From: a virus
Virus record (IMG/VR): IMGVR_UViG_3300045988_104912
Coordinates: 1 to 64,000 of that record
Length of the DNA: 64,000 nucleotides
Strand: one strand, 5' to 3'
The position numbers and the translations under genes are program-made. The notes beneath the pieces were generated by a model. That model did no database searches, had not been told where the DNA came from, and saw only the letters and a program-made list of their open reading frames with translations. The number at the start of each line of letters is the position of its first letter. Positions within the stretch are counted from its first letter, which is position 1. Below, in pieces: positions 3,437 through 62,840 of this stretch.

Positions 3437-3646
3437 TTTAAGAGTTAGTGAACAAATTCCATACAGTATATCATTAGCTATTAACGCATATGTTTACATA
3501 AGATTAATACGAAAATGATTCTAAGGTATGAAATTTTGACTGAAATATTCCGAATGGACAGTTACTCCAAAATATATTTTGAGGCTGTAAAAAGTGCCTT
3601 AAAATGCGAAATATAGGGTATTGGGAGATAATCTCTCACTCTGAAC

Positions 3647-8441: not shown

Positions 8442-9956
8442 ATGAAGAGTAAGGATATAGTATTTGGTTTAGATGCCCTTTCTGAGGTTAAGAAAGGAGT
8501 TGACCTTTTAGCAGATGCTGTAAAGGTTACCTTCGGACCTAAAGGTAATACAGTAGTTATATATGAGGATAACTATCCAAAGGTTACGAAAGACGGTGTC
8601 ACTGTAGCCAGAGCTATAAATTCTTCAGAGCCACTATATGATGTAGGTGTACAGCTTGTCAAAGAAGCTGCTGCTAAGACAGCAGATATGGCAGGAGATG
8701 GAACTACAACATCAACTATCATCGCTCAAGCTTTAATCAATCTCATCTATCAGCAACTTGTCGCAGGTGCAGATCCTAAAGCTATAAGAGCGGAGTTAGA
8801 GAAATCCAATGAGGTTGCTAGGGAGGTTATTAAATCCCTAGCCACCAAAGTTGGGGATACTCCGGATAGCATCAAGCATATAGCTACTATTTCCGCTAAT
8901 GGGGATGAATTTATAGGTACGCTAATTGCAGATGTTATATCAAAGATAGGATATGATGGTGTTATTACTCTAGAAGAGTCTAATGGCTTTGATACATATG
9001 CCGAAACAGTAGAAGGGATGCAGATTAATAAGGGATATATCTCCCCTTATTTTATCAATGACCCTACTAATAGAGCAGTAGTATTAAATAATCCTAGAGT
9101 ACTAATTTATAATGGTATTCTAAATAATGTTAAGGATCTATTCTCAATCCTTGAATATATAGTACAAGATAATGAAGAAATCCTACTTATAGCTAATGAT
9201 TACTCACCTGAAGTAATTAATGCTATAGTTAGGAATGTCCAAAGAGGATTGCTTAAAATAGCAGCGATTCGAGCACCTGGTGTAGGTGAATATAAGAAAG
9301 ATCTTTTAGAAGATATTTCAATAATTACAGGATCTCCAGTATACGATAAACTGCCTATTATATCTTTAAAGGGATATCCATCATCAACAGATGATATTAA
9401 GTTAGGTACAGTTAAAAAAGTTGTAGTAACCTCAGACAATACTACTATTATTGGTTCAACCGAAGCTAATGAATCAATTAAAGCAAGAGTAGAGATGCTT
9501 AAGGAGTCATTAAAAAACGATTATCCTAAATATCTTATAGATGATATTAAATCTCGAATTGCTAAATTATCTGGTGGAGTAGCTGTTATTTATGTAGGAG
9601 CACCTACAGAAATTGAAATGTCTGAGAAGAAAGATAGGATTGAGGATGCAGTATGTGCTACTAGAGCTGCTATCGAAGAAGGAGTAGTTGTAGGAGCAGG
9701 TATTATACAGGAAGACATCTCCAAGACTTTAGAGAAGAAGGGATATCATATTTTAGCTAAAGCTCTCATGGCATGTAGAAAGCTTATTCTTGATACTATG
9801 CCTATCTATTATGAAGATGCTTTAGAGTCTAATATTTTAGACCCTGCTAAAGTAACAAGAGTCTCTATAGAGAATGCACTTTCTGTAGCATATATGTTCT
9901 TATCTACTAAATGTGTAATAATTAACGAGAATGAAGCATCTAACAGCTTATATTGA
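8442..9956 (+). CDS. groEL: GroEL/Cpn60-family chaperonin homologue (504 aa)
   Basis: The N-terminal 100 aa align by eye to E. coli GroEL ('LADAVKVTFGPKG', 'VTKDGVTVAR', 'AGDGTTTSTIIAQAL'). GDGTTT lies at 8694-8711. The protein is shorter than bacterial GroEL and lacks a GGM tail. Confidence 0.92.
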   Translation: MKSKDIVFGLDALSEVKKGVDLLADAVKVTFGPKGNTVVIYEDNYPKVTKDGVTVARAINSSEPLYDVGVQLVKEAAAKTADMAGDGTTTSTIIAQALINLIYQQLVAGADPKAIRAELEKSNEVAREVIKSLATKVGDTPDSIKHIATISANGDEFIGTLIADVISKIGYDGVITLEESNGFDTYAETVEGMQINKGYISPYFINDPTNRAVVLNNPRVLIYNGILNNVKDLFSILEYIVQDNEEILLIANDYSPEVINAIVRNVQRGLLKIAAIRAPGVGEYKKDLLEDISIITGSPVYDKLPIISLKGYPSSTDDIKLGTVKKVVVTSDNTTIIGSTEANESIKARVEMLKESLKNDYPKYLIDDIKSRIAKLSGGVAVIYVGAPTEIEMSEKKDRIEDAVCATRAAIEEGVVVGAGIIQEDISKTLEKKGYHILAKALMACRKLILDTMPIYYEDALESNILDPAKVTRVSIENALSVAYMFLSTKCVIINENEASNSLY

Positions 9957-11905: not shown

Positions 11906-12478
11906 ATGAAGCTATTTACATATAAGGACTATAATTTAAAGATTTCTGAAGAGGCTTATGCTCTAAGGCCATTTAAGAAACTTGTAGATAGGGATAGAAC
12001 TAAGGATAAAACAAAGGCTATGAAAGAGTTAGCCTACTTGTATTTTATGTACGATCCAAGGTCAGATTTTTCCTTCGAAATTATAGAGGCAGACAGAGAT
12101 TTACGTGTTAAAGATAGTATAGGATTAGATGCTGATTGGAAGCCAGATAAGCAGGTTTTAGAAGCTATAGAACTTTATAAATACCTAACTACAACATCTT
12201 CTTCTTTACTATTACAAGATACAAGAGTTATTATTGATAATATTCGTAATACTTTTAGATCTATAGATTTAACAGAGAAAGACGCTAATGGTAAACTAGT
12301 GTTTAATATAGGTCAAGTTATGACCGCAGTAAAACAAGTCCCTAGTCTTGTTAAGGAACTTACGGATGCTGAAAAAGCTGTATCTAAAGAAATTGAAGAT
12401 ATGGGTACTATGAGAGGTATGAAGCAAAAGGCAATCCTTGAAGATGGGATGAAATCATTCTTAGGAGGAGGTGATTAA
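11906..12478 (+). CDS. hypothetical protein (190 aa), possible small terminase subunit by position
   Basis: Immediately upstream of TerL and TAATG-coupled to it. No motif recognised. Confidence 0.5.
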   Translation: MKLFTYKDYNLKISEEAYALRPFKKLVDRDRTKDKTKAMKELAYLYFMYDPRSDFSFEIIEADRDLRVKDSIGLDADWKPDKQVLEAIELYKYLTTTSSSLLLQDTRVIIDNIRNTFRSIDLTEKDANGKLVFNIGQVMTAVKQVPSLVKELTDAEKAVSKEIEDMGTMRGMKQKAILEDGMKSFLGGGD

Positions 12479-15400
12479 TGGTACTTATAGATACTAATAA
12501 ACATCAGACACCTATTACAGAAGAACTTAGAGATTCTTTATCTACAGAAGTATGGAATGATTTCTTAGAAATTATCACTAATGTAGAATTTATTAAGAAT
12601 CTTATCTCGCCAGATCGCCAACGAGCTAAAGATAGACCCCGTGACTCTTTTGGCAGGATTATAGTAGATATTTGTAAGCCACATATATTAGAGAATATGG
12701 ACTACTTTAGGCCAGCTGCTATACACTATCAAAAATATGGTTGTTATACTAAGCTTCGTCCTGATGCAAATCCTAAATCAGAGTTTGGTATGTGGCTAAC
12801 ACGAGAAGTTCGTAGGTGCTTAGATGGTATGGTCAGACCTGAAGATGGGGAATGGATTCCTGGAGATTTTTATTTCTACTTAAATTATTTGCCTATTATT
12901 CAGACTAAGATACGTAAAGGTACTCGCATAGGTGATCGTGTTGTAGACTTTCCTGAATGCTGGGAAGGTGTTTATCTTAGGGCTCACTATCAATATCAAG
13001 CTCGTAATGGTGGTTTATATGATGATTTTGTAGGGGGAAAGCATTCTGTTGAGATTGCTTCTCGTGGTAAATCAAAGTCATACTATGCAGCTGCCATCCT
13101 ATGTAAATTCTTCCTCTTAGGAGAGAATTCTATTTCTTATGATAAGGTTAAATGTCTTGTAACAGCATATCAGAAGGAGTATCTTATTAAGGACGGTACT
13201 CTTAACAAATTTATTGATGGTATAGATTTCTGTGCTAAAAATACTCAATTTCCTCGTGCTAGACTTAAGAATTCTCTTTCAGAGATGCAGTGGATTTCAG
13301 GGTATATCGATAAGGATTCAATGATTCCTAGGGGTTCTCAAAATGAAGTATTAGGGGTAGCTGTTAAAGATGATCCTGACAAGATTCGTGGTAAACGTTC
13401 AAATAGAATGCTTTATGAAGAGTTTGGTACTTTCCCGAAATTTCTAGATGTATGGCAGACGGCTTTACCTAATGTTCAGGAGAATGCAGCTGCTGCTTTT
13501 GGGCAAGCAATAGCCTTTGGTACAGGAGGTTCTGAGGGTTCAGATTTTATGGGAGCTCTTGAGATGATTAATTATCCGGATGGTTATTCAGTATATTCTC
13601 TACCAAATGTTTTTGATAAAGGAGCTGTAGGAGCTAGGCGAACAATATTCTTCTTTCCTAGTTATCTTAATTCTAAAGGTTTTTACAATGAAGATGGTGT
13701 ATCTGATGTTGTAGGAGCTATTTTAGAAGAGATTAAACATCGTGTAATCCTAAAATATAACTCATCTGATCCTATTCAGCTCACACGTCGTAAAGCTGAG
13801 TATGCATTTACTATCACAGATGCTATTATGCGTAGGGATAGTAATATCTTTCCTTCTGATAAATTAAATGACCGTATTCTAGAATTAGATCAGAATCCTA
13901 AGAGTTTAGACGATATGTGGGTTGGAAGACTTGTTCAGACTAAAGAAGGGAAAGTTGAATTTACTCCAGATGCGGATGTAAAGCCTATTTTAGATTATCC
14001 TCATAAAGATAATAAGCTTGAAGGAGCTGTACATATTAATAAGATGCCCATTAAAGGTCCTGATGGCAAGGTACCTTGGGGACGTTATATAGCAGGTGCT
14101 GACCCTTATGATGATGATGTATCTGACACTATGTCTCTTGGATCAATCTATGTACTAGATTTATTTACTGATGAGCTAGTTTGTGAATATGTAGGTAGAC
14201 CTATGTTTGCAGAGGATTATTATGAAACCTGTAGACGTATTTGTTTATTCTATAATGCTGAATTACTCTATGAGAATAATAAGAAGGGTTTATTTACGTA
14301 TTTTTCTAAAACAAACTGTCTGTATTTGCTATCTGACATTCCTGAGTTTTTAAAAGATAAAGAGATTGTTAAGGGAAATTTCTTTGGTAATAAGGCTCAC
14401 CCATATTCACAGTTAGTATATACTCCAGAGGGACCTAAACTATGGGGAGATATAAAAATAGGAGATAAGTTGTTTAATACTTATGGTGGTATTACTACAG
14501 TGATAGATATTCCATATAATGATAAAACTGATATATACGAAATATATTTACGGGATGGTAGAAAAGTAAAAGCTTCTGCTAATCATTTATGGAATGTTAT
14601 TACTAATGGAAAGACCTACAAAACTATTTCCACTAAAGAAATGAGTCTTTCCTTAACCAGAGATAAAGGAAAATATAAGGAAGCTAAATATTATGTAATA
14701 GGTAATTTAGGTGCTAATTTTAAGGAAGTTCCTTTAAAATTACCAGCTTATTTTATGGGTCTAATGTTAGGAGATGGGTGTTTTACAAGGTCTAGACATC
14801 ACCAAGCTAATTTTGCATCTTCTATATCAGATTTAGATACATATAAAAAATATGTTCCTTATTCTTGTAAAACAATAGATGATAGGCATCATTGGTGGCG
14901 TGTAAAAAATATCGGAAACATACTACAAGAGTTAGGTCTTTCTAAATGTAAATCTCGTACTAAGTTTATTCCAGATTGTTATAAATTCAATTCAATAGAA
15001 AATAGACTAGAACTTCTTAGAGGTCTTCTAGATACAGATGGGTGCATAGGTTATGGAGGAAACCCGGAATATACAACAACTTCAGAGCAGTTAGCACTAG
15101 ATGTTGAATTTGTAGCTAGGAGTTGCGGTATTAATTGTAACATACAAAAATCAACAAATGCGTTTGGACTAGTTTATAAAGTAATTTTTTATACAGATAT
15201 TCCAATGTTTCATTTAGAAAGGAAGTATACTAAGCAAAAACTTACTAAAACTAGAGCTTTTAAGACAGCTATAGTAGATATTAAACTAATTGGGCAAGAG
15301 CTAGCTAAATGTGTTACCGTTGATTCAAAAGATGGATGCTATTTAATTGGAGATTTTGTAACTACACATAACAGTAAAGGAGTTAATGCTACACAACCAG

Positions 15401-15759
15401 TTCAAACATATGGCCGTACACGCATCAGAGACTGGCTTTTAAAGCCTCTTAAGGTTGTAACGAAGGTTACTATAGATGGACATGAAGAAGAGGCAGAAAT
15501 CACTATAAATAACATTAATAGGTGTTATTATAGGGCTCTAATGAAAGAGTTATCTATGTGGAATCCCGATAGCAACTTTGACCGATATGATGCCTTACTA
15601 ATGTTAATGTTACTTCGAGAGCAAAAACTCATGCTTTGTGGTAATTTATCTCCTTCTGAGGTTATCAATGTAGATCAAGCAGATTACTTAGGTAATGATG
15701 ATTTCTTTACCAGGAACTATGATTATAGGTTTGCTAAATACCTACATAAGGATAATTAG
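12478..15759 (+). CDS. terL: terminase large subunit precursor containing an intein (1093 aa)
   Basis: Walker-A-like 'ASRGKSKS'. Typical size once about 326 aa of Hint plus LAGLIDADG insert are removed. Sits upstream of the portal. Confidence 0.88.
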   Translation: MVLIDTNKHQTPITEELRDSLSTEVWNDFLEIITNVEFIKNLISPDRQRAKDRPRDSFGRIIVDICKPHILENMDYFRPAAIHYQKYGCYTKLRPDANPKSEFGMWLTREVRRCLDGMVRPEDGEWIPGDFYFYLNYLPIIQTKIRKGTRIGDRVVDFPECWEGVYLRAHYQYQARNGGLYDDFVGGKHSVEIASRGKSKSYYAAAILCKFFLLGENSISYDKVKCLVTAYQKEYLIKDGTLNKFIDGIDFCAKNTQFPRARLKNSLSEMQWISGYIDKDSMIPRGSQNEVLGVAVKDDPDKIRGKRSNRMLYEEFGTFPKFLDVWQTALPNVQENAAAAFGQAIAFGTGGSEGSDFMGALEMINYPDGYSVYSLPNVFDKGAVGARRTIFFFPSYLNSKGFYNEDGVSDVVGAILEEIKHRVILKYNSSDPIQLTRRKAEYAFTITDAIMRRDSNIFPSDKLNDRILELDQNPKSLDDMWVGRLVQTKEGKVEFTPDADVKPILDYPHKDNKLEGAVHINKMPIKGPDGKVPWGRYIAGADPYDDDVSDTMSLGSIYVLDLFTDELVCEYVGRPMFAEDYYETCRRICLFYNAELLYENNKKGLFTYFSKTNCLYLLSDIPEFLKDKEIVKGNFFGNKAHPYSQLVYTPEGPKLWGDIKIGDKLFNTYGGITTVIDIPYNDKTDIYEIYLRDGRKVKASANHLWNVITNGKTYKTISTKEMSLSLTRDKGKYKEAKYYVIGNLGANFKEVPLKLPAYFMGLMLGDGCFTRSRHHQANFASSISDLDTYKKYVPYSCKTIDDRHHWWRVKNIGNILQELGLSKCKSRTKFIPDCYKFNSIENRLELLRGLLDTDGCIGYGGNPEYTTTSEQLALDVEFVARSCGINCNIQKSTNAFGLVYKVIFYTDIPMFHLERKYTKQKLTKTRAFKTAIVDIKLIGQELAKCVTVDSKDGCYLIGDFVTTHNSKGVNATQPVQTYGRTRIRDWLLKPLKVVTKVTIDGHEEEAEITINNINRCYYRALMKELSMWNPDSNFDRYDALLMLMLLREQKLMLCGNLSPSEVINVDQADYLGNDDFFTRNYDYRFAKYLHKDN
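14395..15372 (+). mobile_element. intein with LAGLIDADG homing-endonuclease domain (about 326 aa; the N-terminal boundary could be 14407)
   Basis: Block A 'AHPYSQLVYTPEG'. Block B 'GRKVKASANHLW'. LAGLIDADG motifs 'YFMGLMLGDGCF' and 'LLRGLLDTDGCIG'. Block F 'AKCVTVDSKDGCYLIG'. Block G 'FVTTHN', followed by Ser. Confidence 0.8.
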
Positions 15760-15874: not shown

Positions 15875-16543
15875 ATGCACAAGAATAAGTTGAATGGGAA
15901 AGTATACATAGGAATTACTTCTAAAGATGACCCTAATAAAAGGTGGTTAAATGGAAAAGGTTATAACCATTCAACTCTTTTTAAGAAGGCTGTTAAAAAA
16001 TATGGATGGGATTCTTTTGAGCATATAATTTTATTTGATAACTTAAATAAAATCTCTGCTTGTTTAATTGAAATAGACTTAATATTTTATTATCAGAAAA
16101 TCCAGATGTCTTATAATATCAATCTAGGAGGTGAAGGTAGTGAATCTATGTCTAGCGAAACTAAGCAGAAAATTTCTCAAACCTTAAAGAATCATCCTGT
16201 TTCAGAGGAGACGAGAGCTAAAATTTCTAAAAAAGTTTCTGGAGAGAGACATGGGAATTGGGGCAAACCTCTATCTCCGGAAACTAGAGCTCGTATAGGA
16301 AAGGCTAATTCTGGAGAAAAGAACGGAATGTATGGACATAAATTTACTCCTGAGGAAATAGAGAGGATGCGCTTTCAAAGAGCTAAACCAATTCTTCAAT
16401 ATTCTAAAGAAGGTACGTTTATAAAAGAATGGCCTTCTGCTGGAGAAGTTGGTCGGACTTGGGGAGTATGTTATAAGAGTATAAGTAAGTGTTGTCTAGG
16501 AAAGAGGAAGACAGCTCTTGGGTATGTTTGGAAATATAAATAA
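15875..16543 (+). CDS. free-standing GIY-YIG homing endonuclease with NUMOD3-like repeats (222 aa from the first ATG)
   Basis: 'NGKVYIGIT' (YIG), repeated 'ETRAKIS / ETRARIG' helices, and C-terminal 'GYVWKY'. The GIY-like 'AIYKVY' is encoded in frame just upstream of the ATG. Confidence 0.85.
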   Translation: MHKNKLNGKVYIGITSKDDPNKRWLNGKGYNHSTLFKKAVKKYGWDSFEHIILFDNLNKISACLIEIDLIFYYQKIQMSYNINLGGEGSESMSSETKQKISQTLKNHPVSEETRAKISKKVSGERHGNWGKPLSPETRARIGKANSGEKNGMYGHKFTPEEIERMRFQRAKPILQYSKEGTFIKEWPSAGEVGRTWGVCYKSISKCCLGKRKTALGYVWKYK

Positions 16544-16545
16544 TT

Positions 16546-18942
16546 ATGATTGATTTAAGAAATTTACCCCCGCAAATGCTTCCTTATAGTAAGAAAACAA
16601 AGGCTTGGAGGAAACAGCATTGTGATTGGGCCGACCGTCGTACTTACTATTTTGGCAATATGGTGCGGAATTCTCTGTTGAAGAAGAGAATTAACTATAA
16701 TCTCATAAATGGTGTTTTAGATATGAGAGACGTAGAGTTAATTCTTAATCCAGACAATGTCAATGCATTATATGTTCCAGAATCTATTCAGCATTTCCCT
16801 ATTATGAACTCAAAGCTTCATGTTCTTCAAGGAGAAGAAGCGAAGAGAAGATTCGAATTTAAAGTTGTTGTAACTAATCCTAATTCTATTTCAGAGATAG
16901 AGAATAGTAAATTAGTAATGCTCCAAGAACAAGTTCAGTCGATGATAGAAGATGAAAACTTGTCAGAGGAGGAGTTTAATAAAGAACTAGATAAGTTATC
17001 TTACTATTTTGATTATCAATGGCAAGATATTATCGAAATGAGAGCTAGTACTGTTCTTTCTCATTACATGAAAGAGCTAAACATACCCAAAATATTTAAT
17101 GATGGGTTTATGGATGCAATGATTTGTGGTGAGGAAATCTATCAATGTGATATTGTTGGGGGAGAACCTACTTTTGAAAGACTTAATCCTTTAAAAGTTC
17201 ATATTTTCAAAAATGGTTTTTCTAATAAAGTTGAGGATGCAGATCTAATAATACTTATAGACTTTTGGAGTCCAGGTAGAATCTTAGATACTTACTTTGA
17301 TGTTCTATCTAAAAAAGATGTTGACAGTATAGATAAGCTAGCTAGTACTTTTAGTAGTGATTCTATGTACAATATTGATGAAAGAAATGCCTTTATTAAT
17401 ACTGCTGAGATTGATGGTACAGACATCTCAGGAGGTACTATAATAGAGAATTTTCTACTGATGGGACAATCTGGATTTTCAGCAACGAGTAATTACTATG
17501 ATCTTCAAGGTAATATTAGAGTATTAAGACTTTATTGGAAAAGTAAGAGAAAGATCAAGAAGGTAAAATCTTATGATCCGGAGACTGGCGAAGAGCTCTT
17601 TGATTTTTATCCAGAAACCTACATTATAGATAAAGGAGCTGGTGAAGAAGAGGAGATCTTTTGGATTAATGAAGCATGGGAAGGTACTAAAATAGGTCCA
17701 GATATTTATGTTAACATGAGACCTAGGATAGTACAGTATAATAGACTTTCTAATCCATCTAGATGTCATTTTGGTATTGTAGGATCTATGTATAACCTTA
17801 ATGATTCTAGACCTTTCTCTTTAGTAGATATGATGAAGCCTTTTGCTTATTTTTACGACGTTATCTACGATAGACTTAATAAAGCTATTGCTGCTAACTG
17901 GGGTAAAATTGTAAAGCTAGATCTTGCTATGGTTCCTAAAGGTTGGGAGATAGATAAGTGGTTATACTATGCAAAAGTAAATCATGTTGCTGTTACAGAT
18001 AGCTTTAAGGAGGGAAATGGAGGAGCTGCTCAAGGTAAGATTGTAGGAGCTCTAAATACTCAGTCTAATGGTGTTATAGATGCTGAACAGGGTAATTATA
18101 TTCAGGAACACATTAATCTCCTAGAATTCATTAAAAATGAGATGGGAGAGGTTGCTGGTATTACTCGACAGCGAGAGGGTCAGATTAGTAATCGTGAAAC
18201 TGTTGGTGGTGTTGAAAGATCAAATTTACAATCTTCTCATATTACAGAATGGTTATTTACGATGCATGATGATGTTAAAAGGAGAGCTCTTGAATGTTTC
18301 TTAGAGACAGCTAAAATAGCTATGAGAGGTAGGAATAAGAAATTCCAGTATATCACCTCTGATGGGGCTATAAAATCTCTTGAAATTGATGGAGACACTT
18401 TTGCAGATAGCGACTATGGAATTGTAGTAGATGCCTCTCCTGAAACTCAGAATCTCGCTTCAAAACTTGATGCTTTAGCACAAGCTGCTTTGCAGAATCA
18501 AACTCTCTCATTCTCTTCAATAATGAAGATTTATACTTCATCATCTCTGTCAGAGATTCGTAGGACTATTGAAAAAGACGAGCAGGCTATTCAAGAACGT
18601 CAAGCTGAACAAGCTCAGCAGGAACAAGAAATAGCACAGCAACAGATGCAGACTCAGATGGAAATGAAGCAGGCTGAGATGAATTTCCAAGATATGCTTA
18701 ATCAGCGCGATAATGATACTAAGATTCTTATTGAGCATATTAAACAATCTGGAAATACAGAGAATGAAGTCCCAGAAGTTCAAGACAACTCTATGGAACG
18801 AGCGAAGTTAGATGAACAGATAAGGCAGTTTAATGAAAGATTAGCTTTTGATAAAACTAAGTTATCAAAGGAGATAGACATTAAAGAAAAAGATCTTGCT
18901 ATTAAACGTGCCAAGCCTAAACCATCTAGCAATAGTAAATAA
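16546..18942 (+). CDS. portal protein candidate (798 aa)
   Basis: Size and position next to TerL. Gln/Glu-rich coiled C-terminus. The assignment rests on synteny only. Confidence 0.65.
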   Translation: MIDLRNLPPQMLPYSKKTKAWRKQHCDWADRRTYYFGNMVRNSLLKKRINYNLINGVLDMRDVELILNPDNVNALYVPESIQHFPIMNSKLHVLQGEEAKRRFEFKVVVTNPNSISEIENSKLVMLQEQVQSMIEDENLSEEEFNKELDKLSYYFDYQWQDIIEMRASTVLSHYMKELNIPKIFNDGFMDAMICGEEIYQCDIVGGEPTFERLNPLKVHIFKNGFSNKVEDADLIILIDFWSPGRILDTYFDVLSKKDVDSIDKLASTFSSDSMYNIDERNAFINTAEIDGTDISGGTIIENFLLMGQSGFSATSNYYDLQGNIRVLRLYWKSKRKIKKVKSYDPETGEELFDFYPETYIIDKGAGEEEEIFWINEAWEGTKIGPDIYVNMRPRIVQYNRLSNPSRCHFGIVGSMYNLNDSRPFSLVDMMKPFAYFYDVIYDRLNKAIAANWGKIVKLDLAMVPKGWEIDKWLYYAKVNHVAVTDSFKEGNGGAAQGKIVGALNTQSNGVIDAEQGNYIQEHINLLEFIKNEMGEVAGITRQREGQISNRETVGGVERSNLQSSHITEWLFTMHDDVKRRALECFLETAKIAMRGRNKKFQYITSDGAIKSLEIDGDTFADSDYGIVVDASPETQNLASKLDALAQAALQNQTLSFSSIMKIYTSSSLSEIRRTIEKDEQAIQERQAEQAQQEQEIAQQQMQTQMEMKQAEMNFQDMLNQRDNDTKILIEHIKQSGNTENEVPEVQDNSMERAKLDEQIRQFNERLAFDKTKLSKEIDIKEKDLAIKRAKPKPSSNSK

Positions 18943-31849: not shown

Positions 31850-32206
31850 ATGCAACTAGGTAAATTTCAAATGAAAGCCTTCACTTCGTGGAAAGGCTTA
31901 ACCCGAGATAACCACATCGGAGCTATTTTTGGTCGTGCACCTCAGAAAGCTACTAATATTATGGTACAGCTTCTGGCTCAGCATCGTGGTAAGAGCCTCG
32001 ATAGTTATCTCCAGAGATTCCCTGTTAAGTACTTTGAAACTGATGATGAGTACACTTGGGAAGTCATTGGCAGTTCTCGTCGTAATATTCCCCTTGTAGA
32101 GGCTCGTGATATGAGTGATCAGGTTCTTGAGAATACTGGGGATACCGAGACTTTTGCTGGTGTCAATGGGCAGCCCTTCAAGGTTGTTTTCCCCGAAGAC
32201 TGGTTT
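31850..32206 (+). CDS. major capsid protein, exon 1 (3' boundary provisional: 32206 or 32209)
   Basis: The ORF ends six codons after '...FPEDWF'. Coding of the same character resumes about 880 nt downstream. Confidence 0.65.
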
Positions 32207-33085
32207 GCTAGACCCAGTGTAGCGTAGCTACAGAAATTGGCACTTTATACAGTAATGTATATTGAAAATTGGGCAAAATCGGTGAAGGCCGCTATCTTAG
32301 TCCTACATTAAGATTGGCTAATACCGAGCTAACCTATTAAATAATATTAATAGGTAGTGTAGAGAGTAGAAGATGAACCTATGCTAGGTATTATCTACAT
32401 TATTACAAATGATATTAATAATAAAGTTTATATAGGACAAACAATTCAGGAGTTGCAGAAAAGGTGGCATAGGCATTGTCAAAAATCTTGTTCTAAAGCT
32501 GAAAGGAGAATGGCTATTAAACAAGCTATTTTAAAATATGGTAAAGAACATTTTAAGATTCAAGAATTATGTAAATGCCCTGTTGAAGAATTAAATGATA
32601 AAGAAATTTATTATATCAATTTATACAATTCTTACAAAAAAGGTTATAACTCTACCATCGGAGGACAATCTTCAACAAAGCCTTTAAAGTTAATTTCAGA
32701 ACAAGAACCTATAATAGAGCTTTATAAATTAGGATTTTCTCTAAGAGAAATTGCTAATGAATATCAAGTAGATAAAGAAACCATTAAACATATTATTGAG
32801 ATAAATAACATTCCATTTAGGACGACTAGAACTTATAAGTTTTCTGCAGAAGATAGATTAAGTATTTTAGATGCATATAATAATGGAGTTTCTAGAAAGC
32901 AGATTATGAATGAATGGAATATTTCAAAAAGTTATTTATCTCAACTAATAAGTGGAAAGCGTAGAATATAATTCTTCCAAGAGTGTCCAGATCCTATATG
33001 TTAATAGGATTAAAATGTACTCCGAACTATAGAGATAGTAAATCTATAGAGCTAGAGGATAAAGAGCCTCTAGGATAACAAATTG
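32207..33085 (+). mobile_element. group I intron candidate carrying a GIY-YIG endonuclease gene
   Basis: A P1 candidate with U.G at 32206 and a terminal G at 33085. Hairpin-rich flanks. Shares AATTGGGCAA and an ...ATTG 3' end with the intron at 61928-62840. Confidence 0.65.
32381..32971 (+). CDS. intron-encoded GIY-YIG homing endonuclease (196 aa)
   Basis: 'GIIYIITNDINNKVYIGQT' provides GIY...YIG. The C-terminus is HTH-like ('ISKSYLSQLISGKRR'). Confidence 0.85.
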   Translation: MLGIIYIITNDINNKVYIGQTIQELQKRWHRHCQKSCSKAERRMAIKQAILKYGKEHFKIQELCKCPVEELNDKEIYYINLYNSYKKGYNSTIGGQSSTKPLKLISEQEPIIELYKLGFSLREIANEYQVDKETIKHIIEINNIPFRTTRTYKFSAEDRLSILDAYNNGVSRKQIMNEWNISKSYLSQLISGKRRI

Positions 33086-34240
33086 GATGGCGAGGTAATT
33101 GTAGGTGAACTTAATGAGGTTTATCCCCTGCGTATTCTGGGTCAGCCGAGACTTGAAGGTTCGAATGCAGTTTATACCGTAGAACTTATGGGAGGCGTCC
33201 TTGATGGTATGCCCGTAAGTCAGCTTGTTGCTGGTAAGCGGTTTAGCTGGGAATATGCTCCTGTTGAGGATACGATGTCGCTGGAAGTAGGTGATGTTCG
33301 TTATACTAGCTCTACTGCTATGCGTAATGAGTGGTCACACATTCGTATCCAGACTAAGGTTCCTGGAAATATTCTTGATAAGAAGCTGGCTATTGGTATA
33401 CCTTTTGTAGATAAGGCTGGTAACAAGCAAGTAGCAAATTCATGGATTCACCATGTAGACTATAAGCTGGAGGAAACCTTCTCAGAATATAAGTCGAACA
33501 TTATAATGTTTGGCCGCTCGAACCGTAATAAGAACGGTGAGTATCTGAACTTTGGTAAGTCTGGCAATGTCATTAAGATGGGTGATGGTATCCGTGCTCA
33601 GATGTCTGTAGGTAATACTCGTTATTACACTAAGTTTAATCTAAAGACTCTTGAAGATGCTCTCTTCGAGCTGTCAGAGTCTAAGCTTGATTACTCGGAT
33701 CGTACCTTTGTTATTGAGACTGGTTCTCGTGGTGCTGTACAGTTCCATAAGGCAGTTCTTGATGTAGTATCTGGATGGACTGTATTCCAGTATCTTGGTG
33801 GCAATGCAGCTAATCCTGCTATTATTTCAAAGACTTCGAGCAAGCTACATGAGAATGCTCTGAGTGCAGGTTTCCAGTTCGTAGAGTACAAAGCTCCTAA
33901 TGGTGTAACTATTAAGATTGATGTTAATCCTCTCTACGACGATCAGGTACGTAACAAGATCATGCACCCGAATGGCGGTGTTGCAGAGTCGTACCGTTAT
34001 GATATTATGTGCATTGGTACTACTGAGGAGCCTAATATTCAGCTAGCTAAGGTTCGTGGTAAGGAAGAGTATCGTGGTTACATGTGGGGTCTTCGTAACC
34101 CGTTCACAGGTGGCATGAACAACCCGTACATGTCGTATCCTGAGGATTCTGCACAGATCCACAAGATGGCTACTCTGGGTGTATTCATCCTGGATCCTAC
34201 TCGTACCATGAGTCTGATTCCGAATATTCTTACTGAGTAA
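33086..34240 (+). CDS. major capsid protein, exon 2 (5' boundary provisional)
   Basis: No ATG start. The frame is open from 33074. Long, codon-biased ORF followed by a 12-bp terminator hairpin. Exons 1 and 2 together give about 503 aa. Confidence 0.7.
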   Translation, partial: DGEVIVGELNEVYPLRILGQPRLEGSNAVYTVELMGGVLDGMPVSQLVAGKRFSWEYAPVEDTMSLEVGDVRYTSSTAMRNEWSHIRIQTKVPGNILDKKLAIGIPFVDKAGNKQVANSWIHHVDYKLEETFSEYKSNIIMFGRSNRNKNGEYLNFGKSGNVIKMGDGIRAQMSVGNTRYYTKFNLKTLEDALFELSESKLDYSDRTFVIETGSRGAVQFHKAVLDVVSGWTVFQYLGGNAANPAIISKTSSKLHENALSAGFQFVEYKAPNGVTIKIDVNPLYDDQVRNKIMHPNGGVAESYRYDIMCIGTTEEPNIQLAKVRGKEEYRGYMWGLRNPFTGGMNNPYMSYPEDSAQIHKMATLGVFILDPTRTMSLIPNILTE

Positions 34241-59000: not shown

Positions 59001-61927
59001 AATATAAAGTTTGGCAATATAATGCAGATGCTATTAAGAAAGCTTTTCCTCGTATCCCTACTGCTGATAATGCTGAAGAGTTCTTACGTATCTTAGGAAT
59101 AACCTATGATATCAATAATCCTGAGACTCTTCAAAAAGCTTTGCATACTAAGAGATTCTTAGATAAGATAGGGCAGGTTTACTATCAGATACTCAAGGGA
59201 TCTTTAAAAACTCCTATTGTTAATGAGAATCGTGATGGAGAGAACGAGAACTTAGACGCTTTCTTAGATATACAATCAGATCTTGGTATCGAAACTCTGG
59301 AAAATTCTCACATTTCACTTGGAGATGAAAGAATTTATGATCTTCAAAAACCTGGTTATATTAATCAGACAATCAATAAGATTAATCGAGTTATAGATAA
59401 TCCTGAGAAGCTATATTCAGAGATGCCTCATCTAGATCCTTCTCACAATATTTACGTAACACACTCTTTATTACTTAATAGAGCTCTTGTAGATAGAAGA
59501 ACTCCTAAATTATCAATCTTGATACATGAGGGTAATAGAGAGAATTCTAATGGTACAGGAACGGATTATAAGGATATGAAGCTTATAGATAAGCTTTCTA
59601 CAGTCCTTAATATGACTATGGAAGGTAGAGATAATATTATGAGACCTGCTGATAATGGTCAAGAGCGATTCCTAGATCATGGAGATACTTGGATTAATGT
59701 AAATACTACTCGTGGAGAAGTTATAGATATTTTCAGAGGCTACTTATGGGATGAAATTGCTAGATCTCATATCAAGGATAGAGCATTTACGAACTTTAAC
59801 AAGAACTATACTAAGGGTACAGTAATTGAAAGTTTGTTAACTCCTAATGAGATTAAAGAATTCTTAGTAGACACTGCTGAATCTCCTAATGATTTTGCAG
59901 ATAGAGTTCTTAATACTATAGGTAGAGATGTGTTATCTACTCGTATAGAGAGGATGATTAATACTTGGACTAGCAATGCTTATGATAAGCTAATAGACCT
60001 AGGAGGTCTTAAAGAACTAGCTAATGATCAAGTATTGAATATGTCTCTAAAGCTAAGTACTAATCCTACTACTAATCAGTACTCTAAATCTAACGTCATA
60101 AGCTGGATACGTCACGCAGTAGTAAATTATGCTATCGGTAATATTGAGCAAAGTAAGATATTATATGGAGATAATATATTCTATAAATCTTTAGGTGATG
60201 AATTCAAACGCCACAATGGTGCCATGGGTTCTAAGAAAACCTGCTTAACATCTGATGGTATTAATACTACTATAGCACGTGACTTTAAGCGTATGGATGG
60301 TGCTGAAAATCTCACTGATGAAAGTGGTAAGCCTATACTTAAAACTGCTGTATTCTCAGATGTTTCTAGCTATTCTAAGCAGTTATATCAGATTGCTGAG
60401 ATTGTAGATGCTGAGAGTAATAAATATAAGACACTTCGTAATGATGTTCTTGAGGCTTATGAGCACTCTGATAAGAGTAAATCTTTTGAGGATATGATGA
60501 CAGAAGCTCTTATTAAGAATGCAGATAAGTTAGGTCTCAATAGTGCTCCTTATGCAGATATGACTGAGGGTGATGGTTTCGGAATGATTTCATTAGATGC
60601 TTACCGAGAATTCAAAGTTAGAGTAGGAGATTGGAATCTTGATTCTGAAAAGCTTTATCAATGGGAAGTACAAGAAAGAGCAGGAGTTCCTGTTGAGGAG
60701 AGAGTGTTTGTAGATTTTGATGGTAATAAATCTCCTTTAACTCGTGGTAGTTGGGGTTCTCAGGTATTTAATTCCTTAAAACCTCAACACTTTGGTCCTT
60801 TAGCTAATGTTGAAGGATTTAAACCATCTTTCTATAAACTCTCGTTGATGCCTCTCATACCTTCTGTTCTGAAGGCTTTAGGAGATACTAACCTCTCTAA
60901 GCTTCATGAACTGATGATCAAGAATCAGGTTAGTGTAGCCGTACACTATTCAGCTAATAAAGGTGTAACTACTAAGACTAATTCGGTTACTAATGAGGAA
61001 GGTGTATTAGTTACAAATACAGAGCATCCTTTTAATGACTTCTACGATAAAGAAGGTAACTTCTTAGTAGATACTGAAGGTAATTATACTGGGCCTTTAG
61101 ATCTCCTTACTCAAGATACTTATTGGGAATATTGGGGTATTCAAGTAGACACTGGTGAACATAAACACCATGATGTAGTTACTGGTACTCAGATGATGGT
61201 GCAGATTCTTAACGGTCTATTTGATGCTGGAGAGATTAGTGAACACTTTGAGGAGAATACTCCTAAAGTTAAAGCTTTAGCTGAGGAGTATATTAGTCTG
61301 AATAATCAACGTATTGCTATAGGTAGAGATCAACTTGTTAAGGAGTTAGGTCTTGTAGCAACTAAGAAGGGATGGAAGATTTCTGAAGAGGGTATTGTAA
61401 GTCTCGTTAATTCTCTACGTCGAGAAGCTATTGAAAGGGGATTAGCGGATAATTACATTACTGCTATAGAACTCTTAGACAATCTCGATGATGGTACTAC
61501 TAATATAGATATTCTTCCTACACGTGAGAAGATTGAGAGTATTCTTATGAGTAGAGCTGCAAGTATGACTACTTCTCAGAAGCGTCATGGTACAGCAGCA
61601 TTCCAGGTACCCTCAACTATGTGGGAGACTAAGGCAAGCCGTACATATAATGAAGGTAAGTATAAATCTTCAGACTTAGACTTCGTAGTAAAATATGTAG
61701 ATGGTAAGCCTAAGATTACATCTATGGAAGTATATCTTCCCTCACCATTTAAGGGTATTACAAATGTAGGTAAAGTACCTCCTGAATTGCTACAGCTTAT
61801 AGGATTCCGTATCCCTACGCAGGGACTTAGCTCAATAGAAACTATTGTTGTTAAAGATTTCCTCCCTGAAGCAGCTGGAGATATTATAGTCTTACCTACA
61901 GAGATTGTTGCTAAGGCAGGCTCGGAT
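53036..61927 (+). CDS. giant virion RNA polymerase-like protein, exon 1 (2964 codons)
   Basis: Ends '...AKAGSD'. Splicing completes the sequence as 'GSDYDIDK'. Contains HEAFH at 57598-57612. Confidence 0.8.
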
Positions 61928-62840
61928 TAATATCATGGTTCGAGTAAAATTCTGTTAATTGCGGGGACCCCCTGAGAGTCTAAACTACCGAAGTGTAACA
62001 ATGTTTAGAATTGGGCAATCCGCAGCCAAGCCCCATATGGGGAAGGCTCAACGACTAATACTTAAATAACGTTTCCTTAATGGATAACAAAGCGTATGAA
62101 AACTAAGTTAAATAAAGATTCAAGAAATTTATTAATTGCATTATTACTAGGAGATGGAACTATTAGTAATAATAATGTATTTAAATTATCTCATTCTGAG
62201 GCACAGAGAGATTATTTAGAGTGGAAAGTTAAGCAACTTAATAATGCGGGTATTCGTAATAATGGAATACATGAATATGTTAGTACATGCGGATATAATA
62301 CTGGTCAAAAAGTTTTATATACTCAATTAGGAATAACAACTTTCATTAAATTGCTTAGGAGGATATTTTATAAGCCTAAGAAGTATCTTGGTAATAGACG
62401 TCTTCTAAATAGGTTAGATGCAAGAGGTATTGCTATCTGGTATATGGATGATGGATGTATCAATTATCGAATTACTAAAGGTAAATGCCATGGATTCTAT
62501 ATAAGAATATCCCTATGTGAGGATAAAGAAACCATTCAGAATGTAATAAATTTCTTTAAGGAAGAATGGAATATTTCTTTCTATCCTATATCAGAAGGTA
62601 GAGGTACTTATTCTTTATGCTGTGGTACTAAAGAAGGTATTAAATTTCTTGAAATTGTCAAACCATTTGTATCAGAAGTTCCATGTATGATACATAAAAT
62701 TACATACGACTTAAGTCAAAGATCTAGATCATTGTATGATAAAGAATCTTTGGGTAGGGCTTTAGAGCCTGAAATGCAGAACACTACTATTAGTAGTGAA
62801 GATATAGTCTAAACTTATATGAAAGTATAAGAGATTATTG
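61928..62840 (+). mobile_element. group I intron carrying a LAGLIDADG endonuclease gene
   Basis: 7-bp P1 with U.G at 61927/61938. Contiguous 7-bp P10 with 62841-47. Terminal G at 62840. Structured core at 61961-62090. Confidence 0.85.
62096..62812 (+). CDS. intron-encoded double-motif LAGLIDADG homing endonuclease (238 aa)
   Basis: 'LIALLLGDGTIS' and 'IAIWYMDDGCIN'. Confidence 0.85.
   Translation: MKTKLNKDSRNLLIALLLGDGTISNNNVFKLSHSEAQRDYLEWKVKQLNNAGIRNNGIHEYVSTCGYNTGQKVLYTQLGITTFIKLLRRIFYKPKKYLGNRRLLNRLDARGIAIWYMDDGCINYRITKGKCHGFYIRISLCEDKETIQNVINFFKEEWNISFYPISEGRGTYSLCCGTKEGIKFLEIVKPFVSEVPCMIHKITYDLSQRSRSLYDKESLGRALEPEMQNTTISSEDIV

What the first reader, a model, noticed from the sequence alone, without database searches (positions are those of the whole stretch)
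32207..33085. Major capsid gene split by a second, related group I intron carrying a GIY-YIG endonuclease
Seen in sequence. The capsid-like ORF from 31850 terminates six codons after '...FPEDWF'. Coding restarts without an ATG near 33086 ('DGEVIVGELNEVYPLRILGQPRLEG...') and runs to 34240. A GIY-YIG ORF (32381-32971) lies between, flanked by hairpin-dense noncoding RNA. Those hairpins include GTAGC-gta-GCTAC at 32219-31 and CTAGAGG/CCTCTAG at 33052-73. There are two 5' splice-site candidates. One follows U32206: P1 pairs 32199-206 ACTGGTTT with 32211-18 GACCCAGT, with U.G at the junction and one mismatch. The other follows U32209: TGCT/GGCA plus a 3-bp P10 with GAT 33086-88. The 3' end ...AAATTG|GAT parallels the RNAP intron end ...TTATTG|TAT. 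Both introns share AATTGGGCAA (32267-76 and 62009-18). I cannot fix the junction to better than about 5 nt by eye.
Basis: partly seen in the sequence, partly recalled or inferred. Interest (0 to 1): 0.7.

Follow-up and report, generated by a model that had tools for sequence, protein, structure and literature searches.

The report
Group I intron splitting capsid gene
The major capsid gene of this crAss-like gut phage is interrupted by an 876-base self-splicing-type (group I) intron that carries its own homing endonuclease gene; this is a real but already familiar kind of selfish element in phage genes.

Summary
The crAss major capsid gene is split into 31850-32209 and 33086-34240. An intact I-TevI-like GIY-YIG endonuclease ORF (32381-32971) lies between the two parts.

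An intron-less relative (cr108_1, 88.6% nt identity) fixes the junctions at ...TGGTTTGCT|AGACCC...AAATTG|GATGGC. The intron is therefore 32210-33085 (876 nt).

Rfam RF00028 stays below threshold: 16 bits here and 21 bits on a natural ORF-less copy. However, 13 related introns support a complete group I core: P3-P9.1 with the P3/P7 pseudoknot, 92% of cells paired, and 46 of 64 pairs with compensatory changes. P1 also covaries with the exon.

The endonuclease ORF fills the loop of a hairpin between P7 and P3'. Natural 320- and 332-nt ORF-less derivatives sit at the same site.

The claimed relatedness to the RNAP-gene intron is not supported.

Introns in crAss-like capsid genes are already published, so this is a new member of a known kind. 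Splicing itself is inferred, not shown.

The parts
31850..32209 (+). Major capsid protein exon 1 (120 codons, ends ...TGG TTT GCT = W F A)
   Evidence: Pfam Crass_capsid positions 3-121. Alignment to the intron-less cr108_1 MCP.
32210..33085 (+). Group I intron, 876 nt (starts AGACCC, ends AAATTG with terminal G)
   Evidence: The junction is fixed by the intron-less homologue. The core is supported by covariation. Rfam RF00028 gives only sub-threshold matches.
32206..32209 (+). P1, exon strand UGCU; U32209 forms the U.G wobble at the 5' splice site
   Evidence: It pairs with GGCA at 32239-42. There is a compensatory change: U32206-A32242 here becomes C-G in L010, L015 and others.
32219..32231 (+). 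Small hairpin inside the P1 loop (GUAGC-GUA-GCUAC)
   Evidence: Seen in the sequence. L023 has a different hairpin, UGCU/AGCA, at the same place.
32236..32242 (+). Internal guide sequence. GGCA (32239-42) pairs with exon 1 to form P1. AUU (32236-38) can pair with GAU 33086-88 to form P10.
   Evidence: Comparison across insertion sites: the IGS lies a few nt 5' of P2 and matches each exon.
32246..32261 (+). P2 hairpin UAUACA-GUAA-UGUAUA (GNRA-type loop, conserved in relatives)
32269..32275 (+). P3 5' strand UUGGGCA (pairs with 32984-32990)
   Evidence: Helix 1: 7 pairs, 5 with changes on both sides, 96.7% paired.
32279..32327 (+). P4 (UCGGU 32279-83 / ACCGA 32323-27) enclosing P5 (32287-90 / 32316-19) and P5a (32294-32314)
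   Evidence: Helices 2-4. Also found in the MFE fold of the ORF-less copy.
32328..32358 (+). P6 (GC...GU base plus CCUAUUAA/UUAAUAGG)
   Evidence: Helices 5-6. All 8 inner pairs show changes on both sides.
32362..32368 (+). P7 5' strand G-A(bulge)-GAGUA; pairs with 33018-33023 and forms a pseudoknot with P3
   Evidence: Helix 7: 100% paired, 3 of 6 pairs with double changes. The G-C pair next to the bulge is invariant.
32369..32373 (+). P7.1 5' strand GAAGA (pairs with UCUUC 32973-77)
   Evidence: Helix 8: 100% paired, 4 of 5 pairs with double changes.
32379..32385 (+). P7.2 5' strand CUAUGCU (pairs with AGCGUAG 32958-64); contains the endonuclease start codon AUG 32381
   Evidence: The stem is kept in ORF-bearing and ORF-less relatives, with compensatory changes at its distal pairs.
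32381..32971 (+). GIY-YIG homing endonuclease ORF, 196 aa: I-TevI-like catalytic domain plus two helix-turn-helix motifs
   Evidence: Pfam GIY-YIG E 2.3e-13 plus HTH_28/HTH_23/HTH_38. TIGR01453 scores 71.3 bits against a cut-off of 56. PDB 1mk0/1ln0 (I-TevI) match at E 6e-6, with equivalents of R27, E75 and N90 kept.
32958..32977 (+). P7.2 3' strand (32958-64), conserved internal loop AAUAUAAU containing the ORF stop codon UAA, and P7.1 3' strand (32973-77)
32984..32990 (+). P3 3' strand UGUCCAG
   Evidence: helix 1. The same pairing is proposed by the Rfam model on ORF-less L010.
32991..33010 (+). P8 hairpin AUCCUAU-AUGUUA-AUAGGAU
   Evidence: (helix 9).
33018..33023 (+). P7 3' strand UACUCC (S-element-like AAAUGUACUCCGAAC)
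   Evidence: helix 7. L004 has the canonical UAGUCC here.
33027..33073 (+).
   Evidence: Helices 10-11: both 100% paired, with 5 of 7 pairs each showing double changes.
33074..33085 (+). 3' tail GAUAACAAAUUG ending in the terminal G (omega-G) at 33085
   Evidence: GAUAACAAA is conserved across the family.
33086..34240 (+). Major capsid protein exon 2 (384 codons plus stop)
   Evidence: Pfam Crass_capsid positions 121-495. The joined 504-aa protein gives one match, residues 2-501 to profile 3-495, at 713 bits.

Best explanation
Positions 32210-33085 are a mobile group I intron inside the major capsid protein gene of a crAss-like phage (Steigviridae, close to cr108_1).

Proposed mechanism (inferred). 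In the pre-mRNA, the last four exon-1 bases (UGCU, 32206-09) pair with the internal guide GGCA (32239-42) to form P1, with a U.G wobble at the cleavage site. The core then folds: P3-P4-P5-P6, P7 pseudoknotted with P3, P8, P9 and P9.1. An external guanosine attacks after U32209. Exon 2 is aligned by a short P10 (GAU 33086-88 with AUU 32236-38). The terminal G33085 occupies the P7 guanosine pocket and the exons are ligated. The product is a 504-aa capsid protein reading ...FPEDWFA|DGEVIVGEL....

The 196-aa GIY-YIG endonuclease is encoded in the loop of a hairpin (P7.1/P7.2) between P7 and P3'. Its AUG lies in the P7.2 stem and its UAA lies in a conserved internal loop. It presumably cuts intron-less capsid alleles such as that of cr108_1 during co-infection, so that repair copies the intron in (homing).

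What is shown: the gene split, the junctions, the conserved and covarying RNA structure, the intact endonuclease under purifying selection, and ORF-less derivatives at the same site. What is inferred: splicing and homing themselves.
For: The gene is split cleanly at Pfam Crass_capsid position 121.

Intron-less cr108_1 reads TGGTTCGCT|GATGGCGAG. The joined protein gives one contiguous 713-bit match. Exon 1 ends in U and the intron ends in G.

Thirteen related introns support 11 helices. Of all cells, 92.2% are paired, against 31-47% when partners are slid. Forty-six of 64 pairs have changes on both sides, and 0 of 500 shuffles reach the observed values. This includes the P3/P7 pseudoknot.

P1 and the guide sequence covary with the exon at every insertion site: UGCU/GGCA; CGCU/GGCG; GCGGU/GCCGC; GCCGU/GCGGC; ACGGU/GCCGU; GGAGAU/GUCUCC. 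P10 is 4-8 bp in several relatives.

The Rfam group I model aligns full length to the natural ORF-less copy (21.3 bits, E 0.003) and proposes the same P3, P4, P6, P8 and P9.

Natural 320- and 332-nt ORF-less derivatives, 97% identical in the RNA parts, sit at the same site in five viral contigs. The MFE z-score of the ORF-less form is -3.9.

The endonuclease matches I-TevI and TIGR01453, with catalytic residues kept. Against a 94%-identical copy, 30 differing codons are synonymous and 10 are non-synonymous. The RNA parts differ by 1.8-4.1%, less than the ORF (7.3%) or exon 2 (9%).
Against: There is no transcript or biochemical evidence. Rfam RF00028 does not reach its gathering score of 50 bits: it gives 16.1 bits in the window and 21.3 bits on the ORF-less copy. 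P1 has only 4 exon pairs plus 2 intron-side pairs, and P10 has only 3 bp at this particular site. An alternative hairpin (32199-206 with 32211-18) spans the splice site and could compete with P1. Exon 2 is preceded by an in-frame TTG (33083), so separate translation cannot be formally excluded.
Confidence: 0.92

Rival explanations
1. The capsid gene is truly split. The two fragments are translated separately (the second from TTG 33083) and assemble non-covalently. The GIY-YIG gene is a free-standing homing endonuclease gene between them, and no RNA splicing occurs.
For: the ORF listing finds an in-frame TTG at 33083 just before exon 2. Free-standing GIY-YIG genes exist in this same window, for example 15875-16543.
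Against: The non-coding flanks are more conserved than the ORF and the exon. They fold into a covarying group I core. The guide sequence covaries with the exon. ORF-less 320-nt copies keep the RNA, which a free-standing endonuclease gene would not explain. The break falls in the middle of a conserved motif, FPEDWFA|DGE, that is contiguous in homologues.
Confidence: 0.03
2. It is a group I intron, but the 5' splice site follows U32206. P1 would be ACUGGUUU/GACCCAGU, giving WF|DGE with the Ala lost.
For: A 7-of-8 bp hairpin with a terminal U.G exists at 32199-206/32211-18. The joined sequence stays in frame.
Against: All homologues keep WFADG. Pfam aligns Ala120 and Asp to consecutive profile positions 120 and 121. 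The outer pairs of that hairpin are not maintained in L010 or L023. In contrast, the GGCA guide shows a compensatory U-A to C-G change. In every relative the guide sequence lies a few nt 5' of P2, not at intron positions +2 to +9.
Confidence: 0.02
3. It is a decayed or splicing-incompetent intron remnant, so this phage genome has a defective capsid gene (or the sequence is an assembly chimera).
For: The Rfam score is below threshold. P1 and P10 are short at this site.
Against: The same intron, with an intact ORF, occurs at 94% identity in three other viral contigs. ORF-less forms occur in five more, each inside otherwise intact capsid genes. Every core helix is intact in the window copy. The endonuclease is under purifying selection.
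Confidence: 0.03

Closest known systems
Group I introns in major capsid genes of crAss-like phages (Yutin et al. 2021, PMC7886860; also the RefSeq annotation of cr111_1 and cr128_1)
   Same: Same gene, same virus order, and the same element type (group I intron with a homing endonuclease ORF). The cr111_1, cr128_1 and bajarodcaudo virus 1 capsid introns belong to the same RNA family as the one here.
   Different: The paper found introns through endonuclease domains and emphasised the Delta and Zeta groups. This phage is a Steigviridae (Beta-group) relative of cr108_1, whose own capsid gene is intron-less. The insertion site (after Ala115 in cr108_1 numbering) differs from those of cr111_1 (after residue 144) and cr128_1 (about residue 285). 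It lies 6 nt from the site in bajarodcaudo virus 1.
Phage T4 td intron with I-TevI (subgroup IA2 group I intron plus GIY-YIG homing endonuclease; from established knowledge)
   Same: A phage group I intron in an essential gene that carries a GIY-YIG endonuclease. The catalytic domain aligns to I-TevI structures 1mk0 and 1ln0. There is extra structure between P7 and P3', as in subgroup IA. The start codon is buried in RNA structure.
   Different: The host gene is the capsid gene rather than thymidylate synthase. The ORF sits in the P7.1/P7.2 hairpin loop rather than in P6. The C-terminal DNA-binding part is two HTH motifs, not the I-TevI zinc finger, alpha-helix and HTH arrangement. There is no nucleotide similarity.
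ORF-less or otherwise ORF-bearing introns of the same RNA family in other phages: cr118_1 helicase gene, Clostridium phage phiCD211 and Arcanobacterium phage TPWB06 tape-measure genes, a split unannotated gene of Staphylococcus phage PT1-1, and an unannotated region of Clostridium phage phiCP39-O
   Same: They share the conserved core: AAAAUCGGUGAAGG, UAAUACCGAG, GUAGAGNGUAG, CCAAGAGUGUCC, AUGUACNCCGAAC, GGAUAAAGAGCC, GAUAACAAA. The 3' 120 nt is 70-77% identical, and the helices covary with the window's.
   Different: They lie in different host genes and different phage lineages. Most lack the ORF or carry it in P5 (an annotated HNH gene in phiCP39-O; an unannotated ORF in PT1-1).
The RNAP-gene group I intron in the same window (61896-62176; Rfam RF00028 at 55.6 bits) with a LAGLIDADG ORF
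   Same: Both are group I introns with homing endonuclease ORFs in essential genes of the same phage.
   Different: There is no detectable specific relationship. The core sequences differ: canonical AAUUGCGGG / AAUCCGCAGC / GACUA there, against AAUCGGUG / ACCGAGC / GAGUA here. The endonuclease families also differ.

Membership tests
Group I intron | 5' exon ends in U, which forms a U.G wobble in P1 with an internal guide sequence | tested here: met
   Exon 1 ends at U32209. UGCU pairs with GGCA at 32239-42. The U-A to C-G compensatory change and site-specific guide/exon matching in relatives support this.
Group I intron | Intron ends in G (omega-G) | tested here: met
   G33085 is the last intron base by alignment to intron-less cr108_1. 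The same holds for the eight relatives whose 3' junction could be placed: L010, L002, L014, L003, L011, L021, L018 and L004.
Group I intron | Conserved core topology: P3 enclosing P4-P5-P6, P7 pseudoknotted with P3, P8 between P3' and P7', then P9 | tested here: met
   64 pairs, 92.2% paired against 31-47% for slid controls, 46 pairs with double changes, and 0 of 500 shuffles reaching the observed values.
Group I intron | Guanosine-binding P7 with a bulged nucleotide next to a conserved G-C pair | tested here: met
   P7 is G-A(bulge)-GAGUA / UACUC-C. The G-C pair after the bulge is invariant in 13 of 13 sequences (columns 108/182). That this pair is the G-binding site is inferred by analogy with Tetrahymena G264-C311.
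Group I intron | Rfam RF00028 gathering score (50 bits) | tested here: not met
   16.1 bits (E 0.25) in the window. 21.3 bits (E 0.003, full-length alignment) on the ORF-less L010 copy. 10.7 bits on the ORF-less cr118_1 relative. The model is a poor fit to this lineage.
Group I intron | GTP-dependent self-splicing / exon ligation | not testable with these tools
   No transcript or biochemical data are available.
Group I intron subgroup IA (IA2-like) | Extra helices P7.1/P7.2 between P7 and P3' | tested here: inconclusive
   A covarying hairpin (GAAGA/UCUUC) with an inner stem (CUAUGCU/AGCGUAG) lies between P7 and P3'. It is one extended hairpin rather than two side-by-side helices, and no formal subgroup classification was done.
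GIY-YIG homing endonuclease (I-TevI type; TIGR01453) | GIY-YIG catalytic domain with the conserved Tyr, Tyr, Arg, Glu and Asn residues | tested here: met
   Pfam PF01541 E 2.3e-13. TIGR01453 scores 71.3 bits against a cut-off of 56. In the alignment to I-TevI 1mk0/1ln0, the IIY...VYIG motifs and the R27, E75 and N90 equivalents are all present.
GIY-YIG homing endonuclease (I-TevI type; TIGR01453) | Site-specific cleavage of the intron-less allele | not testable with these tools
   A candidate target exists: the cr108_1 MCP sequence TGGTTCGCT|GATGGCGAG.
Crassvirus major capsid protein (PF23898) | Full-length contiguous match after removing the intron | tested here: met
   Residues 2-501 match profile positions 3-495 of 496, at 713 bits.
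Intein | In-frame insertion without stop codons, with Hint domain blocks | tested here: not met
   The exon-1 frame hits a stop at 32225-27. The insert shows no Hint domain, only GIY-YIG plus HTH.
Group II intron | Domain V / RT-maturase ORF | tested here: not met
   No Rfam group II family matches at E<=10 in 32100-33200. The ORF is GIY-YIG, not a reverse transcriptase.

The most novel reading that the evidence does not exclude
The intron belongs to a distinct, widely spread lineage of phage group I introns. Members occur in crAss-like phages and in Staphylococcus, Clostridium and Arcanobacterium phages. The current Rfam model fails to call this lineage. It has repeatedly re-targeted itself within the crAss capsid gene: at least five insertion sites, two of them only 6 nt apart. 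Each move is accompanied by a rewritten guide sequence, while the RNA core and the ORF position in P7.2 stay the same. If so, the lineage would be a natural series for studying how an intron plus endonuclease pair shifts its target site.
Probability: 0.5. Interest if true: 0.45.

Novelty: new member of a known kind. Interest (0 to 1): 0.3.

Why it matters
For annotation: the capsid gene of this phage and its relatives should be recorded as one spliced 504-aa product, not as two 'major head protein' fragments plus a stray endonuclease, which is how several RefSeq crAss genomes currently show it. The standard Rfam group I model misses this intron lineage.

For biology: it adds a Steigviridae example to the known colonisation of crAss-like core genes by introns. 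With its ORF-less derivatives and its near-neighbour insertion sites, it offers a compact case of the gain, decay and site-shift cycle of a homing intron. It does not change any concept.

Tried and rejected
1. Rfam at gathering threshold finds only the RNAP-gene intron. At a permissive E-value the capsid intron scores 16 bits, because the 589-nt ORF loop separates the two halves of the core. Related loci, including ORF-less ones, also stay below threshold. Rfam was therefore not used as the arbiter; covariation was.

2. My first hand-drawn P3 (UUGGG/UCCAA) was wrong. It was replaced by UUGGGCA/UGUCCAG after the Rfam alignment of L010 and comparison with other members.

4. The shared 10-mer AATTGGGCAA was rejected as evidence that the two introns are related. 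It occurs three times in the window, one of them in coding sequence at 15288. It lies in P3/J3-4 in the capsid intron and in P5'/J5-4 in the RNAP intron. Local alignment is no better than shuffles, and the family model R1 finds nothing at 61896-62176.

5. I searched the window for further members of this intron family using two core motifs and model R1. None was found apart from a noise-level hit at 3500-3610 (11 bits, E 0.1).

6. Intein, group II intron and translational-bypass readings were rejected because of in-frame stops, domain content and length.

7. Two regular-expression attempts to extract cores failed for trivial reasons. One search failed on a file name.
Full report
**1. Observation.**
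- ORF 31850-32227 encodes 125 aa ending ...FPEDWFARPSVA*.
- A 196-aa ORF lies at 32381-32971.
- An open frame starting DGEVIVGELNEVYPLRILGQPRLEG runs from 33086 to 34240.

Pfam shows one gene cut cleanly in two. The first piece matches Crass_capsid (PF23898) profile positions 3-121 of 496 (E 1.7e-42). The last piece matches positions 121-495 (E 6.6e-165). The middle ORF is a GIY-YIG nuclease (E 2.3e-13) with C-terminal helix-turn-helix motifs. PHROGs agrees: major head protein and homing endonuclease.

**2. Junctions.**
The closest phage record is cr108_1 (MT774385; Crassvirales, Steigviridae, Asinivirinae, Pipoluvirus), 88.6% identical over the exons. Its capsid gene is uninterrupted.

Nucleotide registers on both sides give ...TGGTTCGCT|GATGGCGAGGTAATC... 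in cr108_1. The window reads ...TGGTTTGCT|AGACCC.....AAATTG|GATGGCGAGGTAATT.... No other placement reproduces the homologue.

The intron is therefore 32210-33085 (876 nt). Exon 1 ends in U32209 and the intron ends in G33085, as a group I intron requires.

The joined 1515-nt ORF encodes 504 aa. It gives a single Pfam match, residues 2-501 to profile positions 3-495, at 713 bits.

Of the two candidate 5' sites, the second (after U32209) is correct. The first (after U32206) would delete an Ala that every homologue keeps.

**3. Is it a group I intron?**
Rfam RF00028 reaches its gathering score only for the other intron in the window (61896-62176, 55.6 bits). In the capsid gap it gives 16.1 bits (E 0.25), aligning only the half that lies 5' of the ORF. 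I therefore looked for relatives.

- blastn against phage records found homologous ORF-bearing introns in the capsid genes of bajarodcaudo virus 1 (70% identity over 93% of the intron), cr111_1 and cr128_1.
- It also found 70-77% matches of the last ~120 nt to intron-like gaps in genes of Staphylococcus, Clostridium and Arcanobacterium phages and in the cr118_1 helicase gene.
- A pattern scan of IMG/VR returned 16 more loci.
- Three of these carry the same 876-nt intron at the same site, at 94% identity.
- Five carry natural ORF-less derivatives of 320 nt (four contigs) or 332 nt (one contig). These arose by two different deletions, equivalent to window 32393-32948 and 32402-32945, and are 97% identical in the RNA parts.

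On the 320-nt form, the Rfam model aligns end to end (21.3 bits, E 0.003) with sensible P3, P4-P6, P8 and P9. This is still below threshold, so this lineage is a poor fit to RF00028. The ORF-less cr118_1 relative scores only 10.7 bits.

**4. Structure by covariation.**
I excised the ORF loop from 13 non-redundant members, aligned them (A1), and tested a structure drawn on the window copy. The helices, in window coordinates:

| Helix | 5' strand | 3' strand |
|---|---|---|
| P3 | 32269-75 | 32984-90 |
| P4 | 32279-83 | 32323-27 |
| P5 (enclosing the P5a hairpin 32294-32314) | 32287-90 | 32316-19 |
| P6 | within 32328-58 | within 32328-58 |
| P7 (G-A bulge-GAGUA / UACUCC; pseudoknotted with P3) | 32362-68 | 33018-23 |
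| P7.1 | 32369-73 | 32973-77 |
| P8 | within 32991-33010 | within 32991-33010 |
| P9 | within 33027-49 | within 33027-49 |
| P9.1 | within 33052-73 | within 33052-73 |

Results of the test:
- 92.2% of 772 cells form standard pairs, against 31-47% when partners are slid by 1-3 columns.
- 46 of 64 pairs show changes on both sides.
- No shuffle out of 500 reaches the observed values.
- P3, P6, P7, P7.1, P9 and P9.1 are each 93-100% paired, with most pairs compensated.
- The lower figures for P5a and P8 reflect MAFFT misalignment of variable hairpins.

The G-C pair next to the bulged A in P7 is invariant. The MFE fold of the ORF-less allele recovers the nested hairpins, with z = -3.9. This topology is the defining group I core.

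**5. P1, P10 and the guide sequence.**
In every relative, the segment a few nt 5' of P2 is complementary to the last 4-6 nt of that intron's own 5' exon, with U.G at the junction:

| Locus | Exon strand / guide |
|---|---|
| window | UGCU / GGCA |
| L010 | CGCU / GGCG |
| L003 | GCGGU / GCCGC |
| L022 | GCCGU / GCGGC |
| L014 | ACGGU / GCCGU |
| L018 | GGAGAU / GUCUCC |

Between the window and its 94-97% identical copies, exon U32206→C is matched by guide A32242→G.

P10 is 3 bp here (GAU 33086-88 with AUU 32236-38). It is 4-8 bp in L003, L011, L014, L018, L021 and L022.

At most it is a competing structure.

**6. The endonuclease.**
The ORF matches TIGR01453, 'group I intron endonuclease' (71.3 bits against a cut-off of 56). 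It also matches the I-TevI catalytic-domain structures 1mk0 and 1ln0 (E about 6e-6). The GIY/YIG tyrosines and the equivalents of R27, E75 and N90 are all present. Two HTH motifs follow.

Against the 94% copy in L015, 30 differing codons are synonymous and 10 are non-synonymous. The flanking RNA parts differ by only 4.1% and 1.8%, against 7.3% for the ORF and 9% for exon 2.

The ORF fills the terminal loop of P7.2. Its AUG (32381) lies in the 5' strand, CUAUGCU. The 3' strand, AGCGUAG, together with the conserved internal loop AAUAUAAU, supplies the last codons and the UAA. The same arrangement holds in all ORF-bearing relatives, and the same stem with a short loop is found in ORF-less Firmicute-phage relatives. 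Burial of the start codon suggests that endonuclease translation and ribozyme folding are mutually exclusive. This is an inference, by analogy with T4 td/I-TevI.

**7. Relationship to the RNAP-gene intron.**
This claim is not supported.
- The best local alignment of the two RNAs is the shared 10-mer itself. Its score is 21, against 19.5 +/- 2.3 for shuffles, and 79 of 300 shuffles do as well.
- By contrast, the capsid intron scores 75-103 against cr118_1, phiCD211 and TPWB06 introns.
- The 10-mer occurs a third time, in coding sequence at 15288.
- It lies in P3/J3-4 in the capsid intron, but in P5'/J5-4 in the RNAP intron.
- A covariance model of the capsid intron's family (R1) finds only the two halves of the capsid intron in the window and nothing at 61896-62176, even at E<=10.
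- The two introns also carry different endonuclease families: GIY-YIG and LAGLIDADG.

**8. Wider picture.**
Members of this RNA family occupy several sites in crAss-like capsid genes (cr108_1 residue numbering):

| Site (after residue) | Loci |
|---|---|
| 115 | window, L010 group, L023 |
| 117 (6 nt downstream) | bajarodcaudo virus 1, L014 |
| 144 | cr111_1, L011, L021, L022 |
| 185 | L018 |
| about 285 | cr128_1 |

Each has a matching guide sequence. The window intron and the +6 intron are the closest pair: 70% nucleotide identity, with endonucleases 55% identical. This suggests a small shift of insertion point within the reach of one endonuclease. That reading is an inference.

**9. Comparison with what is known.**
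Yutin et al. 2021 (PMC7886860) already report group I introns in MCP, PolB and primase genes of crAss-like phages. They recognised the introns by their endonuclease domains and mainly in the Delta and Zeta groups. A 2023 review repeats this (PMC10136315). RefSeq annotates cr111_1 and cr128_1 capsid genes as fragments separated by 'homing endonuclease'. Group I introns carrying GIY-YIG endonucleases in essential phage genes are classical (T4 td/I-TevI; established knowledge).

The finding is therefore a new member of a known kind. The additions here are:
- exact junctions;
- a covariation-backed secondary structure;
- the ORF location in P7.2;
- the ORF-less alleles;
- the failure of the Rfam model on this lineage.

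**10. Verdict.**
This is a real, well-supported group I intron with a homing endonuclease. Confidence is about 0.92. The remaining doubt is only that splicing has not been observed. Interest is low to moderate (0.3).

Noticed in passing
window 12478-15759 (+): A 1093-aa ORF with an internal LAGLIDADG_3 domain (aa 843-894, Pfam E 2.4e-8). It contains GDGCF and LLDTDGCIG motifs. It looks like an intein-bearing late gene just upstream of the ORF at 16546-18942. One of the three AATTGGGCAA copies (15288) lies inside it.
   Followed up: partly
window 15875-16543 (+): A free-standing 222-aa ORF with a GIY-YIG-like N-terminus (KVYIGIT) and two NUMOD3 motifs (Pfam E 7.5e-15). It sits between two large late genes. 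It is a second homing-endonuclease-type gene in the window and is not inside an intron.
   Followed up: partly
window 61896-62840 (+): The RNAP-gene group I intron (Rfam 55.6 bits at 61896-62176) carries a LAGLIDADG_2 ORF at 62096-62812 (E 1.7e-18). The 3' part of the Rfam alignment overlaps that ORF and may be spurious. The cr108_1 match over window 61500-64000 covers only 68% of the query and spans about 620 fewer bases. That is compatible with cr108_1 lacking this intron, but I did not check it.
   Followed up: partly
L010 (reverse-complement orientation, as) 8923-9268; likewise L019, L020: The phages with the ORF-less 320-nt allele have a further insertion of about 346 nt, without an ORF, in the capsid gene at about residue 451. 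The window lacks it.
   Followed up: no
L002 (bajarodcaudo virus 1) 2040-2920 and L014: The nearest relatives of the window intron are inserted 6 nt further downstream (WFADG|EYIVG). Their guide sequences are rewritten accordingly (L014 ACGGU/GCCGU). L002 also keeps a GCCGC relic near its 5' end. This may be a case of insertion-site shift.
   Followed up: partly
L006 (Clostridium phage phiCD211) 1060-1329 and 1353-1618: The tape-measure gene appears to hold two introns in tandem. One is a member of the present family. About 23 nt later comes a separately annotated Intron_gpI.
   Followed up: no
L002 about 1375-1727 and L004 upstream of 1620: In bajarodcaudo virus 1 and cr128_1 the capsid alignment starts only at residue 17. 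This suggests yet another intron after about codon 16 of the capsid gene.
   Followed up: no
window 3500-3610 (+): A weak hit of the family covariance model R1 (11.3 bits, E 0.1). Probably noise.
   Followed up: no
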